DNA of 63,796 nt, filler included, from Welwitschia mirabilis (GCA_051453625.1; 6 parts of one record of this genome joined end to end with filler, not necessarily neighbours in it); one strand, 5' to 3'. Positions 11,530 to 62,773 are shown, numbered from the whole stretch's first letter. Notes: a model not told the origin generated them from the letters alone. Made by a program: numbers and translations.

Positions 11530-13660
11530 GCAATGATCCTAGTACTTTTTAATATGCTATGATAAGTATTTTTTTTATTTTGATATGTTAGAGGGCTCAA
11601 TAGAAACTTTTATGGATGACTCTTCAATCTATGGTGAAAGCTTTGAGCAAATCGTAAGGCTAGAGAAAGTCCTTAATAGATGCATTACTAATGGTCTACA
11701 TTTGAGTTAGAAGAAAAGTTTCTCTTTAGTTGATAATGGAATTGTCTTAGATCACCATATTTCTAATAAAAGAATTAGGATGGATTCTAAAAAGATTAGT
11801 ATCATTAAAAACCTACTTGCTCCAATCAATGTAAAATAAGTTCAATCCTTCCTTAGTCATTGTGATTTTAATCATCAGTTTATTTAAAATTATGTAAAAA
11901 TTTAATTGGAATAAATTTTATCAACTTGATTTTGATACACTTAAAGATAAAATTTCTTCTGCTCCTATTGTAATAGAACCCAATTGGAATGAAGACTTTG
12001 AATTAATGTGTGATGCTAGTAATATTACCATAGATGAGGTACTTAGTCAAAATTATAACAATGATTTTAAGGTTATATCTTATCATAGTAAAACTTTATC
12101 TAAAGCTCAAATGAATTTTACTACCACGAAAAAAGAAATATTAGCAATTATCTTTTGTCTTAATACACTTAGACATTATTGTTTAAGATTTCATATAAAT
12201 ATTTATACTAATAATGCAATAATTAGATATCTTACGACTAAAAAAGATTCAAATGCTAGATTTATTATATCGATTCTTATCATGTAAGAATTTAACTTAA
12301 CCATCATTAGTAAGGTACGAAAGCATAATCATGTAGCTGATCATTTGTCATGTCTTTCTTCTTCTCTTGATGATCTTATGATTGATGATTCTTTTTTGGA
12401 TTAATAACTTTTTTTTATATCTTTTACCCATCTATCTTCTTGATATGCTGATATTGTTAATTATCTTTTTACCATGAAAACACCACAACATTAGACTTAT
12501 ATAGGAGATTATGAATGGATAAAGCAACATCTTTATTATAAGTCTAAAAACCAAATTATGTGAAAATGTATGCTTGATTTGGAAAAAATTTGACATCCTT
12601 TATCTTTGTTATGATGGTATTTTTGGAGATCATTTTAGTGAATAAAAAACAACTATGAAAATCCTTCACTTTGGTTTTTATTGGTATACTCGATTTTAGG
12701 ATTCTTTTGATTTTGCTAGAAGATGTGATGCTTGTCAACGTATGGTAGCCTTATTCACACCTAAGAAATACCTTTAAATCTATTCTTGAATTTGAATCAT
12801 TTGATTGTTATGGAATTAATCTTATAGGCCCTATTCACGCATCTTCTAATGATAAGAACTACATTTTAGTGGCTATAAATTATGTTACTAAATGGGTTAA
12901 AGCTATGCCTACTTTTATGAATGATGCTTGAAGTATTTGTATTTTTCTTAGAACTTAAATTTTTTAACATTTTGGTTTTTTTAAAATTATCATTAGTGAT
13001 TAAGGAACTCATTTTATACATTAACTTTTTATGAAACTTCTTTTATCCATTAGAATAGAACATAGAGTAGCTTGGGCTTATCATCCAGAAACTAATAGTC
13101 AAGCTAAAAACACAAATAGAAAAATTAAGAAAATGCTACAAAAACTTATCTCTGTTAACAAACAATCTTGAGCTTCCAATCTTAATGATGTTCTTTAGGC
13201 TTACCATATTACTTAGCATAATTCTCTTAGTTTTTTACTTTATCAACTTGTATATAGAAAAATTTGTATTTTACCTATTGATGTGTGTTATTTTGCTTAT
13301 CATCAAATTAATATTGTAGATCTTCATAATGATCTTAAACATAGATTAGACTAACTTAATTACCTAGATGAAAAACATACTCATGCTATACATTGTTAAT
13401 TAATTCACAAAGCCCAAGCAAAGTTTAAACATAATAGAAAGTTACTTAACAAAAAGTTTGATCCTAGTTAACTTGTTCTTTTAAACAATACTAGTGTACA
13501 TATTTTATATGATAAGTTGACCTCTAAATGGTTAGGTACTTATCTTATAAGGCAGTGTATTATAATAACTCTATCAAAATTTTCAACTTTAAAACTTAGG
13601 AGATTCAGAAAGTTAATGAACAAAGGTTGAAAATATATGAGAAATCTTTCGATGCAATCT
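11530..13660 (+). pseudogene. Decayed Ty3/gypsy RT C-terminus, RNase H and integrase (probably element C)
   Basis: FMDDSSIYG near 11610; ORF 12006-12287 MCDASN...NFTTTKKEILAI; ARRCDACQR near 12720; WVKAMP, ISD*GTHF, AYHPETNSQA; KLTSKWLGTY near 13520. No chromodomain seen. Confidence 0.92.
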
Positions 13661-17032: not shown

Positions 17033-17132
17033 NNNNNNNNNNNNNNNNNNNNNNNNNNNNNNNNNNNNNNNNNNNNTTAATTAATTAANNNNNNNNNNNN
17101 NNNNNNNNNNNNNNNNNNNNNNNNNNNNNNNN
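17033..17132. other. Artificial scaffold linker
   Basis: 44 N + TTAATTAATTAA (17077-17088, stops in all six frames) + 44 N. Confidence 0.97.
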
Positions 17133-25616: not shown

Positions 25617-27554
25617 TTTGCATGAATTATTATGCTAGTTTGAATTCTATGTCCCATGCCTAAATCTCTTATACATTTCATTCTCTTATATTCATCGTCA
25701 TTGTGCTTGTTTTATTGATAACTCTCATTATTTGTTTTTGTGAAAGAGTACGACTAGGACTATACTACAAACAAAAGTCCTAGTTTTATTGGTAAAAGTT
25801 GGATTGACCATGCAATATTTGTATCCTAAGACGATATTGTTAGTTATGATACATTGACAATCGATACAAGTGTAGCTAGATCTCATTATAAATAGCTTTT
25901 TAGCATCATTATAAAAGAGAGTGGCATGGTATCTATAAAGGGGCATACAAAATACTTTACAATATTTTTTACCCTTTTTAGTTCTTTCCATTTTTTTCTT
26001 TTTATCTTATGTTAGTCTCTTCTCAGTGCCTTTTTTTTCTTTTTTTATTCTTTTTATTACTAGTGGTTCAATGTCGATTGTGCATAGCACTTGATCAATG
26101 GAACTTGATTTGGTAACTTTTTTTGGTTTTTCTTATTTTTATTTTTATTTTATTTCTTTTTCTTTTCTTTCTTTCCTTGTAATGATTACTTAATATATCA
26201 AATTTTGTTGCAAGGAATGATTTTTTATAGGTTTGAAGAAAAGACATTAAGAAAAATAATCACAAGACTTCTTTCTTCTATCCGTATTTTATTTCTATCA
26301 TTTCTTCTCTCATCTCTTCTCTTCTCTATCTTAGGTGACTTCCTCAACTAGTACTTAAAGATAAGTTTTTAAAAAAGGAATTTAACAATAATAATCTCAG
26401 GGAAGTGCTTTAGTACTTGCATTATTTACTTTTGCATTCTTTATTTCTTGCATTATATTATTATAGTTTTTATTTTGGCATGAGCTCTTTTCATTATCTA
26501 CATTTAGTCTTTTTCTGTCAGTTATCGATAATGACCTATTATCCTAGAGTGTTAGTCATTTTGAGAGTCACATATTCATCTTTTACCTAAACCTTTTCAT
26601 GCTAACTTACCGGCATCATTATCTTTCCTCACTAGTGTTGTAGGTCTCTTGTATCAAAATTTGTTTTTCTTTTGTTCATCAAATGTTTGCATCATCTTGA
26701 ATCTTTTCACATATCATGTGCATCTATAAACATAACCTTTATTAACTATTTTCCTATGTCTAATAAACTAGTAATGACAGTAGTCTTNNNNNNNNNNNNN
26801 NNNNNNNNNNNNNNNNNNNNNNNNNNNNNNNNNNNNNNNNNNNNNNNNNNNNNNNNNNNNNNNNNNNNNNNNNNNNNNNNNNNNNNNTTATTAACTATTT
26901 TCCTATGTCTAATAAACTTAGTAATGACAGTAGTCTTCGATGAACCTCTCCTTGTAACATGGACCATAATCCTTATTTTTTGTCTAAAATCACACACCTC
27001 CTTTTTCTTTTAGGCCTTAACCTAAAAGAACTATTAATAATTACCTATAATATTGATCCTTGGATTCCCTCTCATGCACTACTCAATCTTCTTATGCATA
27101 TACATGGAACTTTAACACCTCTTCAGATAATGATCAACCTTTATCTTACTACCATGATTTTGAATTTGAAGATGCTTACTCTTACCAAGAAAATTTTGAT
27201 TCTTTGCCTTTTACCTTTATTCATGAATCTCACCCTTCATTATTTTATGAATTTGCTTTACTTGCCAGCATTCCTCATTACTCTTATTCCTCAACCACTT
27301 ATCAATTTCCTTTATTTTCTAATCCTTATCCTTCGTTTTCTCAAGAATACTCTTCATTCTATTCATCGTCACTTAACCATTATTATTGATCTCCCAAAAT
27401 TCAATAATTCTCTTCAAATTCTTTAGAAAATGCACTTAATAAGTTTATGGAAGCCCAATACTACATCAACACCATACAACAACATCTCAATCAACAAACC
27501 TTTTTTTACGTTGCAAAGGCTTGAAAAAAATATGCAATAATTAAATTAAACTAT

Positions 27555-29329
27555 TGTAGAAAATATTAGGAGATTTTATAGGATGAATCCACCTTTGGTG
27601 GATACGTATCCTTATTTTAAGAAANNNNNNNNNNAATGGCATAATGCTAAATATGGTAGATGTGTTTGTATAAATGTAATCCTTCTTAATAAAATTGTTT
27701 GAGCTGTTTTGAAAGAAAATCACAGACACTCCTTGGGATGTCTTCGAGATGACCAAGTATGCACTTGAGTTTACGAAGTGAGGCATCAAGCTTTTCCATG
27801 GACGATGTGTACTTGCATAAGTCCTCGGATTTTAGATGTCGAAGCTTCGAGTGTAATAGGCATGTCAATTGGCGATAATGCTCTCATAACTTTTGCATTT
27901 GCGTTGCTGTGCTACAAGATCCCACAACGTTCAGGCCTCTAACATGGAATCAGATAAACAAAGGCAATCATTTACCAATAAGATCAGTTAAAAGATGAGG
28001 GAGCACTCAAAGCGGAGATGAGGCATGCGCTTGCGACAATTTCTCAAAGTGGGTTGAAGCTTCAAGCATTGGCATCCATACAAACTAAGCTTCTGCGGAT
28101 TTTAGAAAATGATGAGGAAGTTAGAACCAAAAAGGTGGATGATAAAGGTTTGCTGAAAGCCCCTTCATCCCTCTTCAACTATAGTCGTTGTCAAAATCTG
28201 AGTTGCGTAAACTTTCAGTGGTCCCTAAGTCAAGAAGAAACAAACGCAGCAAATCTACTGAAAGAAGATACTGTGGCTGTGTTGCACTGGCTCTGTCACT
28301 ATTTCCTCACGAATATTAGCGTGATCTCACAAATAACAGAGTGATATCAGAGTGTTAGAAAGTCTAACGAACACGGAATTTTTTGCAAGGGGTTGGAATA
28401 AACTTTCAAAAGAGATAACCATGTGTATGAGACAATAATGCTTTTATTCATAAAACGACAATAATTTTATTTATTCATGGGGACATTGTGAGTTTTTCAA
28501 ATCATTAATTCATTTCTATTAAAATATATAATTGGTTTTCTTTTTTTTTTTAAGATATTTAGTGGGGTTACACTTTTCATTTAGAAAATGTTTTTAGATG
28601 GTGGTATGGGACACCATTTGTAAATCATTTTCTATATGCAAAAGTAAAAATTTCCACAAAGAAAAATAAGGTAAACATTTTATAAAAGCTAGGTTGGGGG
28701 CTTGTCCTAATCAAGTATACTAAAAATGTTTGAAGCTTAAGATTATTTCTCCTATCTCGATAGTCTCTGAATCATTGTCTCGAAGGTCCCAAGTTTGTCT
28801 TAAGATCGTTCCTCCTATCCAAGTAGTCTCCAGATCACTATCCCTAGTGNNNNNNNNNNNNNNNNNNNNNNNNNNNNNNNNNNNNNNNNNNNNNNNNNNN
28901 NNNNNNNNNNNNNNNNNNNNNNNNNNNNNNNNNNNNNNNNNNNNNNNNNCCCAATTTTGTCTTAAGATCGTTCCTCCTATCCAAGGAGTCTCCAGATCAC
29001 TATCCCTAGTGTCCTGAGTTTATCCCTCGTTGTCCCACTTTGTCCCTTATGTCTTATATATTTGGGAATTTAACATTAAGAGGGAATTTCTAGGAAATAT
29101 TAGGAGATTTTGTAGGGTAGATCCACCTCTAGTGGATACGTATTCTTATTTCAAGAAATAAGTTAATGGCATAATGCTAAATATGGTAGATCTGTTTGTA
29201 TAAATGTAACCTTTCTTAATAAAATTGTTTGAGCTATTTGAAAGAAAATCACAGACACTACCTGGGATGCCTTCAAAGGCTTTCAAACATGGGCTTGATT
29301 GATGTGTAGTGTATCCTTGAGATCCAACA
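27555..29329 (+). mobile_element. Short-LTR (TRIM-like) retroelement carrying a host-like sequence
   Basis: Direct repeats 27555-about 27747 and 29089-29329; outer termini TG and CA; PPT ttaagagggaat before 29089; TSD ACTAT (27550-27554) / ACTAC (29330-29334). Interrupts the gag-like frame of element E. Confidence 0.85.
27751..28344 (+). pseudogene. Captured gene fragment resembling an RNI-like/F-box leucine-rich-repeat protein
   Basis: One frame with 4 internal stops: CISPRILDV...IGDNALITFA...ALATISQSGLKLQAL...VDDKGLL...RCQNLSCVN. GC- and CpG-rich relative to its flanks. Family call is by motif resemblance only. Confidence 0.5.
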
Positions 29330-30169
29330 ACTACTACCCAAATAATTGAGACACTTAACCAACAAGAAGAAGAGGAGTTTTTCACATTCCTAGACCCTAA
29401 TCCTAGGAATATTGAAAGGAGTAATGATAGTTAAATCAACGAATCCCAAGCCACACTCTTTAAGAATGACAAAAAAACTAATAAGAATCTATTAGAGGAT
29501 GAGAAATCAATTGACAAAAGTCAATCCTTTGAGGAAAGTTATACACTTTATGAGAATCATATATTTGAGAATAAGTCTTTTAGCAACTCTTGTAAGAAGG
29601 AGAATATCAAAGAAAAACCTACACATGATCCATTATACAAAGAGTCCTTGCCTTCTTTTCAATACTTTCTTGAGTAAAATGTTTCCATATCATCTTTATC
29701 TCTTGAGAAAGATTCAACCTTAATGTAGACTATAAACCTTCCTTTAAGAAATAACAAATTTGTAATGATCTTATGCATACTTCTCTTGATGAGAACTAGT
29801 TTTGTCTAGTGGCTAACTACTTATTTTTGTCTTTACCTCAAAATGACACCTTGCAAGATTTGTTAAGAAAGTATGAGCTAGTTATAGAATGGACATTTTT
29901 ACGCCTTGAATGCATAGACTTTCCTATTTACATTGATATTTTTTCTAACTTAATAGGAGTATGTGTAAATATTTACATGGATTGCCCCCTATTTCATTAT
30001 CCATCATCCAATCATAGCCTTCATATTCTTAAACTTCATATCTTTCATACCTGTAAGCCTTCACCCATGCATTACACTAGAAAACCCTACTATGAAGAAA
30101 GTTTAATTCTATTGCATGGTTTTAAACTAGATTTCTCTTTTAAATTAGACTTAGGATGGGTAAGTTCAT

Positions 30170-33609: not shown

Positions 33610-35255
33610 TCACTTAGTACTGAGTGATTAGTATATCATGTGCCTTCTTCTACATGATTGCTATCATCATCACCATCCTTAGTGATGGATGTCTAAATAG
33701 TATAGGAAGAGTAAGATATGGAGAGAAGAGTTTGTTACTTCCTAGATGGCTACTGAGATATTTTCCTAGGGCCCTGAAAGGCTTGTCTTCTCATACATGA
33801 ATATGTCTAAGAACTAATGAAATTCCAAAAAAGCTAGCAGTGGTGGTATCAATGAAAGATGGTGGTGTAGTTATGGCAAGAGGTGGAACATGGATTAGTT
33901 CTATAAAAGGTGGTCGTCAAGATGGAATGTAAGGTGGTGATGATGGATTAGATGATTATGGAGGCTATGTGGGATATCAAATCAGTAATTTATGATGAGG
34001 CATGTGAAAGATGAGGGGCTAAATATTGAATCTTTCTAACTCTCTCTCTTGCTTCTCCTATGATGGTATCGGAACTTGGTGCTCCTCTTGTACCTATGCC
34101 TTCTATCTTGTACACTCTCAAGAATTAGTATCTACTATTCTATCTGAGTTATATTCTCTACCATGTGGAATTGAAGGTGTTCTTCCTCTGATTTCTTCTC
34201 AAAATCTATTTAAATGAGAGTCCCCATGGATTCCCAACTACTTATATGTGTCTCTCTTCACTAGCTATGGATCAGTGCTTCTTCAACCTTAGCAAGTTAC
34301 ATCTAATCTTAACTACCATCTTTGCAATGTCCCTTAGGTCCTTATTTATAGATGATGAACTATAAGATGCTATAGATTAAGATTATTAAAATTATGATTT
34401 AGATGATATTCTACTTGTGCATTTACTAGGTGGAACAGGTATTCATTATTTCTTACTAAATTCTGAAAGTGATTTCCTTGGATAAATGAGATTTACTTAT
34501 GGTACTGAAATATTAACACTGTAAATAATAAAACTAATTAAGTAAGGGTAACCCAAAGTTTGACTCTTCTAAAGTAGAGTAATAACATCCATGCATAAAA
34601 TAAACCTAGATCAATCTTCATCCCCATAAATAGACAATAAATGATAAACATCTGTATGGGGGTTGCAATAGCTATAGCTATCATTTTGAACAAGTATGTT
34701 ATAGAATGTGATCAAACCTAAAATAGATGCATCTCAAACCATATCCTTACATTCTATATTCTTATAAAAGTTCATTCTAAAATGCTCAAAAAGTATATTT
34801 CTAATTAAATGTCATGAAACATTAACAGAGTGAAATGAGTATATCTTTAAATAAATGTACATATAATTATGCGAGCTCTAAATCATTACTACCAAGCATA
34901 TAATTCATAATCCTAGGTGTGAGAAATAAATATGTATGTCATACTTGCATTTGAAATATTCTAGTGTTGTCATCAATCTCATGTATGTTGGCATAAAACT
35001 CTCTGACAATAGGGTCTAGAATGGCCTGGTCTAGTTAAACAACCATGCTCATCCAAAAAGTGAAAAATATGTAAGTAACTAATCTTTTCTCTTCTTCTAA
35101 GAATCAAGAGTCCATTTTGCAATAGCTAAGTTTCTTGTCTAGGTTTTGAACCATTTGGCAGTAGACTCATGATAAAATTGAGGCTCATATTATGATCTGT
35201 AAGATTTTGTGATTGGTTCTTTGTCTTTAGAGGTACTAAAGAGTTTCATCCTCAT
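33610..35255 (-). pseudogene. Decayed accessory (env-like) ORF of the SIRE-type element
   Basis: Lies between the pol end and the PPTs; reads ATPIQMFIIYCLFMGMKIDLGLF and LGYPYLIS, followed by a Pro/Ser-rich tail. Confidence 0.7.
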
Positions 35256-35986
35256 CTTTTTTGAATAATATATAAAATAACTAAAATGTAAAAGAATCAA
35301 TGAAAATAAGCATCTGNNNNNNNNNNNNNNNNNNNNNNNNNNNNNNNNNNNNNNNNNNNNNNNNNNNNNNNNNNNNNNNNNNNNNNNNNNNNNNNNNNNN
35401 NNNNNNNNNNNNNNNNATATATAAAATAACTAAAATGTAAAAGAATCAATGAAAATAAGCATCTATAAGAGAAAATGATACCTATTGTGCTGGCTATGGA
35501 GATTTCTATCAAATTCAAGACGTCTTTGCTAAGATATCTAAGAAAAATAAGCTAGAAAAGAGAACTTAGTTGTTTGTGCATTTTTTATTTTCATAATAGT
35601 TCTTAAAAGAATCTACCAGATGAAAGACATCTAGAATGATAATTATAGATGTCAAAGAAGTCTACATTTTCAAAGACATCTATTTTGAAAAAAAAAAAGT
35701 ACCTAACCTTTAAAGATGTCTGAACCTAAAGGCATCTTCTTAATAGATTTCTACAAAAGTGAAGATGTCTCCTTGATAGACCTATTCAAAACTAAATATG
35801 TCTTCCGTGAAAGATCAAAAAACTTTGAAAGTTTTTGTAAATAATATTATGATAATAATATTACATTGAAAACATAAATTAACATGCATAGAATTTATTA
35901 TTCTAGCATATAACTATAATCTCACCTCATAGAATATCATAGAATGAAGTTGAGATTTTTAGAGCTATTACCTGATGAATTACTTG

Positions 35987-43517: not shown

Positions 43518-43617
43518 NNNNNNNNNNNNNNNNNNNNNNNNNNNNNNNNNNNNNNNNNNNNTTAATTAATTAANNNNNNNNNNNNNNNNNNNNNNNNNNN
43601 NNNNNNNNNNNNNNNNN
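43518..43617. other. Artificial scaffold linker
   Basis: 44 N + TTAATTAATTAA + 44 N. Confidence 0.97.
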
Positions 43618-48189: not shown

Positions 48190-48289
48190 NNNNNNNNNNN
48201 NNNNNNNNNNNNNNNNNNNNNNNNNNNNNNNNNTTAATTAATTAANNNNNNNNNNNNNNNNNNNNNNNNNNNNNNNNNNNNNNNNNNNN
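48190..48289. other. Artificial scaffold linker
   Basis: 44 N + TTAATTAATTAA + 44 N. Confidence 0.97.
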
Positions 48290-48923: not shown

Positions 48924-49094
48924 TATTACACTACCAATTTAAGGTTATTTGATNNNNNNNNNNNNNNNNNNNNNNNNNNNNNNNNNNNNNNNNNNNNNNN
49001 NNNNNNNNNNNNNNNNNNNNNNNNNNNNNNNNNNNNNNNNNNNNNNNNNNNNNAAGAATATGAAAAATAATTTGGGCATTATTCAAAGAAGTAG

Positions 49095-56338: not shown

Positions 56339-56438
56339 NNNNNNNNNNNNNNNNNNNNNNNNNNNNNNNNNNNNNNNNNNNNTTAATTAATTAANNNNNN
56401 NNNNNNNNNNNNNNNNNNNNNNNNNNNNNNNNNNNNNN
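56339..56438. other. Artificial scaffold linker
   Basis: 44 N + TTAATTAATTAA + 44 N. Confidence 0.97.
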
Positions 56439-62673: not shown

Positions 62674-62773
62674 NNNNNNNNNNNNNNNNNNNNNNNNNNN
62701 NNNNNNNNNNNNNNNNNTTAATTAATTAANNNNNNNNNNNNNNNNNNNNNNNNNNNNNNNNNNNNNNNNNNNN
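62674..62773. other. Artificial scaffold linker
   Basis: 44 N + TTAATTAATTAA + 44 N. Confidence 0.97.

What the first reader, a model, noticed from the sequence alone, without database searches (positions are those of the whole stretch)
27555..29329. Short-LTR retroelement that appears to have captured an LRR-gene fragment downstream of its promoter
Seen: LTR-like repeats (3' copy 241 bp), a PPT, and TSD ACTAT/ACTAC splitting a gag-like frame. The 5' repeat matches the 3' one only to about 27747. Its last ~50 bp and the PBS are absent, replaced by a sense-strand, apparently intron-free frame with LRR-like motifs (IGDNALITFA, LATISQSGLKLQAL, VDDKGL, RCQNL) and an AT-rich tail. The junction is ~75 bp after the LTR TATA (tataaat near 27669). 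Known: TRIMs and LTR elements can transduce mRNA by template switching. Inference: a retrocopy of an F-box/RNI-like LRR mRNA formed by a switch inside R/U5, potentially LTR-driven or a source of siRNA against its parent gene.
Basis: partly seen in the sequence, partly recalled or inferred. Interest (0 to 1): 0.8.

Follow-up and report, generated by a model that had tools for sequence, protein, structure and literature searches.

The report
Decayed short-LTR retroelement, no LRR cargo
This is an old, immobile, non-coding short-LTR retrotransposon sitting inside a high-copy plant repeat; its left repeat is truncated and followed by about 0.8 kb of sequence private to this copy, but nothing shows that this sequence is a leucine-rich-repeat gene.

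Summary
The structural observation holds. Two direct repeats (27555-27745 and 29089-29274, 163 of 180 comparable bases identical) bound a 1.78-kb insertion with TG..CA ends, a 9-nt polypurine tract and a 5-bp duplication (ACTAT/ACTAC). Contigs from three public DNA runs carry paralogous copies of the host repeat that join 27550 to 29332, so the boundaries are exact. The left repeat lacks the last 55 bp and any adjacent primer-binding site, and contigs of two samples bridge the break at 27745/27746.

Two corrections. The 100-N gap plus the 62-bp duplicate (28850-29011) is an unmerged contig overlap, so the element is about 1.6 kb.

The LRR reading fails. There was no Pfam family at E<=10 and no true homologue among 1.84 billion representative proteins. 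PDB and embedding searches gave nothing, the fold was of low confidence, and there is no poly(A) tail.

Positions 27846-28033 are single-copy in all three DNA runs. Only 28048-28278 has a second copy, at about 86-88% identity.

Best reading: an ordinary degenerate TRIM-like element whose U5/PBS region was rearranged. Capture of an unknown, non-LRR sequence is not excluded (about 0.2). Low interest.

The parts
27550..27554 (+). left target-site duplication ACTAT
   Evidence: Paralogous empty sites carry one copy of the 5-mer (joint 27550->29332 in X1 and X5).
27555..27745 (+). 5' LTR, truncated. It starts TG, holds a 10-N scaffold join at 27625-27634, TATAAAT at 27669-27675 and AATAAA at 27688-27693, and lacks the last 55 bp seen in the 3' LTR.
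27746..28343 (+). Locus-private segment, GC 42%. It has same-frame open pieces of 57 codons (27769-27939) and 120 codons (27982-28341), separated by stops. No protein or RNA family was detected. Only 28048-28278 has a second genomic copy, at about 86-88% identity.
28342..28353 (+). PBS-like 12-mer (10 of 12 to the recalled tRNA-iMet PBS motif). It lies inside a local 11/20-bp tandem duplication and is probably not a functional PBS.
   Evidence: 2 matches in the window against 2.76 expected by chance. TRF rows 28306-28349 and 28333-28354.
28344..28573 (+). AT-rich (GC 27%) continuation of the private segment, with a T11 run at 28541-28551
   Evidence: (depth near single copy up to about 28503).
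28574..28737 (.). A moderately repeated module of about 164 bp, of unknown class, with many diverged copies elsewhere in the genome
   Evidence: Depth in bins 28504-28785 is 15-40 in X1 (single-copy contigs about 2-3) and 96-220 in X6 (single-copy contigs about 2.6-5). Contigs of three runs start at 28574-28577 and end at 28725-28757.
28738..29088 (+). PPT-proximal interior with two degenerate tandem units of about 62 bp (28734-28787 and 28788-28849). Positions 28850-29011 (100 N plus a 62-bp duplicate) are an assembly artefact. PPT AAGAGGGAA lies at 29078-29086.
   Evidence: (joint 28824->28987 in X1 and X5).
29089..29329 (+). 3' LTR, complete, 241 bp. It ends CA; its first dinucleotide has mutated from TG to TC.
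   Evidence: X6 record 22 (29214-29369, 0 differences) bridges the LTR end into the flank.
29330..29334 (+). right target-site duplication ACTAC

Best explanation
A low-copy, non-autonomous short-LTR retrotransposon (TRIM-like, about 1.6 kb once assembly artefacts are removed, with no coding capacity) integrated with a 5-bp TSD into a high-copy repeat. This happened a few million years ago.

The copy is now a degenerate relic. Its 5' LTR has lost the terminal 55 bp (the U5 end), and no primer-binding site is adjacent. The truncated LTR is followed by about 0.8 kb (27746 to about 28573) that is private to this locus.

My committed mechanism (about 0.5) is post-integration illegitimate recombination or double-strand-break repair. 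It removed the U5 end, the PBS and perhaps some interior. It either joined the LTR to the element's own rare interior or patched the break with low-copy genomic filler DNA.

The private segment is not an LRR or F-box gene fragment. It has no detectable family, and its 120-codon open frame is only marginally longer than chance. Without a PBS and a full 5' LTR the copy cannot retrotranspose.

SHOWN: the repeats, ends, TSD, PPT, exact boundaries, the junction, the gap artefact, the copy-number profile and the absence of homologues. INFERRED: the time order of events, the repair mechanism, and promoter activity of the LTR.
For: Structure: (LTR pair 163/180 identical, TG..CA, PPT, TSD).

Exact insertion boundaries come from paralogous empty sites. 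The joint 27550->29332 is seen in X1 and X5, and further printed joints in X1 and X6 agree.

Junction 27745/27746 is bridged by X1 record 3 and X5 record 8. The gap is an artefact and the interior contiguous: joint 28824->28987 in X1 and X5.

The U5 end is missing.

No coding identity was found. Pfam gave 0 families at E<=10. phmmer gave 2 hits in 1.84e9 representatives, both read here as repeat artefacts. The other searches were negative. The frame has 4 internal stops. The 120-codon ORF is reached by 2.5-3.8% of dinucleotide shuffles. There is no + strand A-run.

The PPT-proximal interior, which must be native to the element, is also low-copy. In bins 28786-29067 X1 depth is 2-4.4 where single-copy contigs have about 2-3, X5 depth is 16-27 where they have about 9-10, and X6 depth is 12-18 where they have about 2.6-5. 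Low copy number alone therefore does not mark the 5' part as foreign.

Literature: truncated, rearranged and chimeric derivatives are described as ubiquitous among non-autonomous LTR elements (PMC13570524, passages read).
Against: Positions 27846-28033 are strictly single-copy in all three DNA runs, while the PPT-proximal interior has roughly 2-5 copies. GC in 27746-28343 is 42%, against 27-31% around it. The ORF shows a coding-like position bias: G is 0.28 at codon position 1 and 0.14 at position 2. These points fit a foreign, possibly exonic origin.

A segment of about 230 bp (28048-28278) has a second copy at 86-88% identity: X5 record 11 with 25 differences in 181, and X6 record 16 with 20 in 166. 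That divergence is of the same order as the LTR-LTR divergence (17 in 180). This is what capture at the time of integration would give.

A 5' LTR that is altered while both element termini stay intact can also arise before integration, by an aberrant second strand transfer. Nothing here dates the rearrangement.
Confidence: 0.6

Rival explanations
1. Capture before integration, mediated by reverse transcriptase, of an unknown non-LRR transcript or other nucleic acid. During minus-strand synthesis the RT left the element RNA for a co-packaged RNA. The resulting minus strand lacked the PBS complement, so the plus-strand strong-stop DNA annealed by microhomology inside R/U5. Its U5-PBS flap was lost, and the product kept an intact left U3 end and a complete right LTR. 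It then integrated normally with a TSD.
For: The asymmetry fits: a truncated 5' LTR, a complete 3' LTR, intact TG and CA termini and a clean TSD. The segment 27846-28033 is single-copy, has higher GC and carries a 120-codon frame. The partial paralogue's divergence (12-14%) is similar to the LTR divergence (9.4%). Acquisition of gene fragments or unknown sequence by TRIMs and LTR elements is documented: 30 TRIM elements with gene fragments in PMC4717578, and Veju and Bs1 in PMC13317346 (passages read).
Against: No donor gene was found. No homologue of any open piece was found. The frame has four internal stops. There is no poly(A). Only about 230 of roughly 830 bp have a second copy at 85% or more. 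The private part runs on into AT-rich, non-coding-looking DNA.
Confidence: 0.2
2. One reading: an LTR-driven retrocopy of an F-box/RNI-like LRR mRNA, possibly a source of siRNA against its parent gene.
For: By eye, three short motifs (IGDNALITFA, VDDKGL, RCQNLSCVNF) loosely resemble the cysteine-containing LRR consensus. That consensus is recalled, not tested by any search. TATAAAT lies 70 bp upstream of the junction.
Against: No LRR, F-box or FBD family appeared in Pfam at E<=10. Plant F-box/LRR proteins are a very large family (recalled from general knowledge), yet phmmer against 1.84e9 representatives found no true hit. The PDB search was negative and the embedding search found no LRR cluster. 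The frame has 4 internal stops, and there is no poly(A) tail.
Confidence: 0.03
3. An assembly or copy-structure problem. Either the left half of the 5' LTR and contig 27635-28849 are wrongly joined across the 10-N gap, or the true locus is a tandem array (LTR-interior-LTR-interior-LTR) that was collapsed by short-read assembly.
For: The scaffold join at 27625-27634 is not spanned by any listed piece. One X5 contig reads 28734-28824, then 28987-29164, then 27635-27846 ('goes back 1530', 27 letters fitting both sides). That places the left part of the 3' LTR directly before the right part of the 5' LTR and the cargo. This is what the middle LTR of a tandem array made by unequal crossing-over would look like. 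Tandemly arrayed TRIMs are reported as common (PMC4717578, passages read). At least 4 of the 100-N gaps in the window are flanked by duplicated contig ends.
Against: The same contig can be a chimeric de Bruijn path through the LTR core shared by both copies. The empty-site joints place the left LTR start and the right LTR end at a single host position. Contig 27635-28849 overlaps the contig that holds the 3' LTR. The simple LTR-interior-LTR order is therefore the most economical. The LTR-to-cargo junction itself is confirmed in two samples whichever model holds.
Confidence: 0.12

Closest known systems
TRIM / 'long-TRIM' non-autonomous LTR retrotransposons (Witte et al. 2001, recalled; Gao et al. 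2016, PMC4717578; sugar-beet survey, PMC13570524)
   Same: It has short LTRs (241 bp), TG..CA ends, a 5-bp TSD, a PPT and no retrotransposon protein domains. It is small. Truncated and mosaic derivatives are common in this class.
   Different: At about 1.6 kb it exceeds the 1.5-kb limit of Gao et al. It has no PBS next to the 5' LTR. The 5' LTR lacks its last 55 bp. A second complete copy or a solo LTR with its own TSD could not be shown.
Gene-fragment-carrying TRIMs of soybean and Medicago (e.g. GmaRetroS15; Gao et al. 2016) and maize Bs1
   Same: A small LTR element whose interior holds sequence that is not typical of the family. Its size is similar to theirs (1.17-1.45 kb).
   Different: Those elements have both LTRs intact, mostly two or more copies, and interiors more than 70% identical to identified expressed genes (PMC4717578). 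Here no parent gene or protein homologue was found, the 5' LTR is broken, and the segment is unique to one locus.
Veju_L TRIM of wheat, which acquired an unknown sequence, attributed to abnormal template switching (as summarised in PMC13317346)
   Same: Sequence of unknown origin added to a miniature LTR element.
   Different: The Veju long form became a propagating subfamily. This copy shows no sign of having propagated.
Tandemly arrayed TRIMs (TA-TRIMs; Gao et al. 2016)
   Same: One X5 contig has the hybrid-LTR arrangement expected of a middle LTR.
   Different: This rests on a single short-read contig that could be a chimeric graph path. The window assembly shows only two LTRs.

Membership tests
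LTR retrotransposon (structural) | two direct terminal repeats | tested here: met
   27555-27745 against 29089-29274: 163 of 180 identical.
LTR retrotransposon (structural) | TG..CA element termini and a 4-6-bp target-site duplication | tested here: met
   TG at 27555 and CA at 29329. ACTAT/ACTAC match at 4 of 5. Paralogous empty sites carry one copy of the 5-mer.
LTR retrotransposon (structural) | primer-binding site directly after the 5' LTR | tested here: not met
   The U5 end and the adjacent PBS are absent. The only PBS-like 12-mer (10 of 12) lies 597 bp downstream, at about chance level, and inside a local tandem duplication. Only the tRNA-iMet motif was searched.
LTR retrotransposon (structural) | polypurine tract directly before the 3' LTR | tested here: met
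   AAGAGGGAA at 29078-29086, 2 nt before the LTR. It is short, and 9-nt purine runs occur 7 times in 27500-29400.
TRIM sensu Gao et al. 2016 | element shorter than 1,500 bp and without gaps | tested here: not met
   1775 bp as assembled. About 1.6 kb after removing the 162-bp artefact. It contains two N runs.
TRIM sensu Gao et al. 2016 | [quoted passage not shown] | tested here: inconclusive
   LTR bins have several-fold the depth of the single-copy interior contigs, and diverged LTR contigs exist (X1 record 7, X6 record 21). The flanks and TSDs of those copies could not be seen, because no genome is held.
TRIM sensu Gao et al. 2016 | no retrotransposon proteins | tested here: met
   Three ORFs that lie in or overlap the element gave no credible Pfam family: two had none, and the third had only sub-threshold matches at E 0.076-0.13.
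F-box / RNI-like LRR protein gene fragment | significant match to LRR, F-box or FBD profiles, or to LRR proteins | tested here: not met
   Searches are all negative. AF2 gave pLDDT 43.7 with a helical, non-solenoid model, which is no verdict.
Processed retrocopy of an mRNA | poly(A) tract at the 3' end of the copied segment | tested here: not met
   No A-run of 8 or more on the + strand in 27500-29400.
Processed retrocopy of an mRNA | collinear with the exons of a parent gene, introns missing | not testable with these tools
   No genome is held. Only a paralogue of about 230 bp is visible, in short contigs.
Gene-capturing TRIM/LTR element (Gao et al. 2016; Bs1) | interior significantly similar to an expressed host gene | tested here: inconclusive
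   No protein-level match was found. At the DNA level there is a partial paralogue of unknown nature. One RNA run shows no reads of the locus.

The most novel reading that the evidence does not exclude
A miniature LTR retrotransposon picked up part of a lineage-specific ('orphan') transcript through an aberrant strand transfer inside R/U5. That would give a single-copy chimeric insertion in which a 120-codon frame of unknown family lies about 70 bp downstream of the LTR's TATA box. The locus would record a failed or one-off retroelement transduction whose junction can be read at base resolution.
Probability: 0.15. Interest if true: 0.35.

Novelty: new member of a known kind. Interest (0 to 1): 0.15.

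Why it matters
It matters little beyond annotation. The element should be masked as a degenerate non-autonomous LTR retrotransposon nested in a high-copy repeat, and not annotated as an LRR pseudogene.

It is a useful caution in two ways. First, short motif resemblances to LRR consensus in a 42%-GC stretch did not survive profile and database searches. Second, in this draft assembly the 100-N gaps can hide nothing more than an unmerged overlap.

If the private segment proved to be a captured transcript, it would add one more case to a phenomenon already catalogued in soybean, Medicago, maize and wheat.

Tried and rejected
- Whole-genome search: no genome is held for this window.
- Earlier findings of the scan, by place and by sequence: nothing.
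- Metagenome scans: the 27-nt LTR core gave 0 matches. For the 120-aa frame, 250 pattern matches were found and none was confirmed by tblastn.
- Rfam on 27000-29800 at E<=1: three matches, all far below their gathering scores (mir-29 24.9 against 46.7, sR5 21.3 against 40, mir-737 24.6 against 60). All rejected as chance.
- ARAGORN: no tRNA.
- tblastn of the two open pieces against the window: only self-matches, with the next best at E>1.
- An idea that the 5' LTR continues in diverged form after 27745, or has only an internal deletion: rejected, because the alignments are no better than shuffles.
- An idea that 28342-28353 is the true PBS, so that the 'cargo' sits exactly between U5 and PBS: judged weak. 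The match is at chance level in the window, it is generated by a local tandem duplication, and it lies inside the locus-private part.
- AF2 single-sequence fold: pLDDT 43.7, so no fold search was run.
- RNA: no RNA holder was listed by the look-up of sequencing runs. In the one oligo-dT run laid (X17, about a quarter of it read), all 122 laid reads fall on the single bin 28034-28127, with loose ends at 28091 and 28124. All are under 90% alike, with GC-rich loose ends on both sides, so they come from a different transcript that shares a short acidic-coding motif. This says nothing on whether the locus is silent.
- Host-flank ORFs as 'gag': no Pfam family and no homologue.

Full report
CONTEXT. 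The window is AT-rich (GC 0.15-0.32 in 2-kb bins, mostly 0.25-0.31) and looks like plant DNA. It is a fragmented draft with 43 N runs. Five of the breaks are 44N-TTAATTAATTAA-44N linkers, so the window is a concatenation of scaffolds. The finding lies in the piece 17133-43517. No whole genome is held. Everything about copy number and other samples therefore comes from one lay of public contigs and reads.

THE OBSERVATION. The direct repeats are real: 27554-27745 against 29088-29274. Excluding the 10-N run, 163 of 180 aligned bases agree, with 13 transitions, 4 transversions and K2P 0.103. With the commonly used plant rate of 1.3e-8 per site per year (recalled), that is roughly 4 million years.

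The insertion starts TG at 27555 and ends CA at 29329. It is flanked by ACTAT and ACTAC, and a 9-nt purine run lies 2 nt before the 3' repeat. TATAAAT and AATAAA occur at the same positions in both repeats.

The boundaries are confirmed independently. The flanks belong to a high-copy repeat, with word depth in the hundreds to thousands. Contigs from other copies of that repeat join 27550 directly to 29332 with one letter between (one contig each in X1 and X5). One search prints further joints and between-letter rows in X1 and X6 that link about 27499-27556 with 29338-29553. The whole of 27555-29329 is therefore one insertion at one host position, with a true 5-bp duplication.

THE ASYMMETRY OF THE REPEATS. 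Similarity stops at 27745. The last 55 bp of the 3' repeat have no counterpart after the break or anywhere in the interior; local and anchored alignments are no better than 2000 shuffles. The break is not a scaffold chimera at that point. X1 record 3 covers 27651-28038 without a difference, and X5 record 8 covers 27635-27846 with one. X5 comes from another sample and study than X1, which may be the window's own source.

CORRECTIONS TO THE ASSEMBLY.
- The 100-N gap at 28850-28949 is flanked by the same 62 bp (97% identical). Contigs of X1 and X5 join 28824 to 28987. The gap plus duplicate is therefore an unmerged overlap, the interior is contiguous, and the element is about 1.6 kb. No gag-pol can be hidden there.
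- The same kind of duplicate flanks the 100-N gaps at 26788, 35317 and 48954.
- The 10-N join inside the 5' repeat (27625-27634) is not spanned by any listed piece.
- One X5 contig runs from the interior end through the left part of the 3' repeat into the right part of the 5' repeat and on into the private segment ('goes back 1530'). This is either a chimeric graph path through the shared LTR core or the middle LTR of a tandem array. Tandemly arrayed TRIMs are reported as common (PMC4717578, passages read). I cannot decide between the two.

WHAT THE INTERIOR IS. Its open pieces are 57 and 120 codons. A 120-codon stop-free stretch is reached by 2.5-3.8% of dinucleotide shuffles of the segment, so it is marginal. 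GC is 42% in 27746-28343 against 27-31% around it. The ORF has a mild coding-like position bias.

Against a gene identity:
- Pfam found no family at E<=10 for either open piece.
- phmmer of the 120-aa piece against 1.84 billion representatives gave 2 hits at E<=0.001. On reading their sequences, I take both for internally repetitive, unrelated proteins.
- Nothing was found among longer proteins by the word-indexed search, for either piece.
- Nothing was found in the PDB.
- The best embedding score was 0.79, with recognition below threshold and no LRR cluster.
- AF2 gave pLDDT 43.7.
- Nothing was found in metagenome contigs.

No test supports that. There is no poly(A) tract on the + strand, no Rfam family near its threshold and no tRNA.

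COPY-NUMBER PROFILE (likeness 85% or more).
- LTR bins have several-fold the depth of the single-copy interior contigs.
- 27846-28033 is covered only by the locus's own contig in X1, X5 and X6.
- 28048-28278 has one further, diverged copy: X5 record 11 with 25 differences in 181, and X6 record 16 with 20 in 166.
- 28316-28503 is again essentially single-copy.
- 28574-28737 is a module with many diverged copies.
- The PPT-proximal 28786-29067 has roughly 2-5 copies.

The 5' part of the interior is thus private to this locus. The native PPT-proximal part is also rare, however, so rarity alone does not prove a foreign origin. Organism B (X6) carries identical contigs for the private segment and for the junction of the 3' LTR with the flank (records 15, 17, 20, 22). 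The insertion is therefore shared between the two labelled organisms.

THE PBS QUESTION. The recalled tRNA-iMet PBS 12-mer matches at 10 of 12 at 28342-28353, directly after the ORF's stop. The window as a whole gives 2 such matches against 2.76 expected, which works out to about 0.03 expected in the interior on the right strand. The site is produced by a local 11/20-bp tandem duplication, and the DNA downstream of it is not shared with other family copies. I treat it as probably fortuitous.

EXPRESSION. All 122 reads laid from the oligo-dT run X17 fall in the single bin 28034-28127, with loose ends at 28091 and 28124. All are under 90% alike and all continue into GC-rich sequence unlike the locus. 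They come from another transcript. No read of the locus itself was seen. This is one run, a quarter of it read, so it is no evidence of silence.

MECHANISM. Standard reverse transcription makes both LTRs identical. A 5' LTR that alone lacks its U5 end therefore needs one of two things.
- (a) A post-integration event: a deletion, possibly with filler DNA, by illegitimate recombination or break repair.
- (b) An aberrant second strand transfer before integration. This keeps both termini intact and would allow a foreign template to be copied in sense orientation.

Both fit the anatomy. The similar divergence of the partial paralogue (12-14%) and of the LTR pair (9.4%) is compatible with (b) but does not exclude (a). 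No donor gene, spliced structure or poly(A) is seen, and rearranged derivatives are the rule in this class (PMC13570524, passages read). I therefore put (a) at about 0.5, (b) at about 0.2, an assembly or tandem-array complication at about 0.12, and the LRR retrocopy at about 0.03.

COMPARISON WITH KNOWN ELEMENTS. The element works like, and descends from, a TRIM-type non-autonomous LTR retrotransposon.

Gene-fragment TRIMs are known: 30 elements in seven subfamilies, one in Medicago and six in soybean (PMC4717578, passages). So are Bs1 and the long Veju form (PMC13317346, passages). Even the boldest reading would therefore be another member of a known kind.

VERDICT. The structure is real, the LRR cargo is not supported, and interest is low. 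The supplements of the cited papers were not consulted. The TRIM tables in the supplements of PMC4717578 might contain this family.

Noticed in passing
window 17033-17132, 43518-43617, 48190-48289, 56339-56438, 62674-62773: Five identical spacers of 44 N + TTAATTAATTAA + 44 N. These are artificial contig linkers with stops in all frames. The window is therefore a concatenation of separate scaffolds, and adjacency across the spacers means nothing.
   Followed up: partly
window 26788-26887, 28850-28949, 35317-35416, 48954-49053: These 100-N gaps are flanked by near-identical contig ends of 49-71 bp, i.e. unmerged overlaps rather than missing sequence. For 28850 this is confirmed by contigs of two public runs.
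   Followed up: partly
window 28574-28737: A module of about 164 bp inside the element has many diverged copies elsewhere in the genome. Depth is tens-fold that of single-copy contigs in X6. Contigs of three runs start at about 28574 and end at about 28737. It is bordered by TTAAGAT at 28550 and 28737 and preceded by a T11 run. Its class is unknown; it may be a nested small retroposon or a shared module.
   Followed up: partly
window 28091-28124: 122 reads of the oligo-dT RNA run pile on a stretch of about 34 nt, between loose ends at 28091 and 28124, and show 4 fixed differences there. They continue into GC-rich sequence on both sides. This is a short acidic-coding motif shared with an abundant unrelated transcript. 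One DNA contig of X6 shows all four of these differences and a second X6 contig shows two of them.
   Followed up: partly
window 28734-29164 + 27635-27846 (X5 contig): One contig of an independent sample links the interior end and the left part of the 3' LTR to the right part of the 5' LTR and the private segment. This is either a possible three-LTR tandem form or a chimeric graph path.
   Followed up: no
window 11898-12287 (+): This ORF holds a reverse-transcriptase-associated RNase H domain (PF17919, E 4.4e-24; PF17917, E 1.2e-23). It is a pol fragment of an LTR retrotransposon, about 15 kb upstream of the finding.
   Followed up: no
window 27000-27553 and 29335-29800: The host sequence around the insertion is a very high-copy repeat, with word depth up to about 1200 per bin in X6 and over 2700 at single positions. 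Its open frames have no Pfam family and no detectable homologue, so its class is unknown and 'gag' was not confirmed.
   Followed up: partly
window 34064-34075 (+): The second PBS-like 12-mer in the window (10 of 12 to the tRNA-iMet PBS motif). It might mark the 5' end of another LTR element's interior.
   Followed up: no
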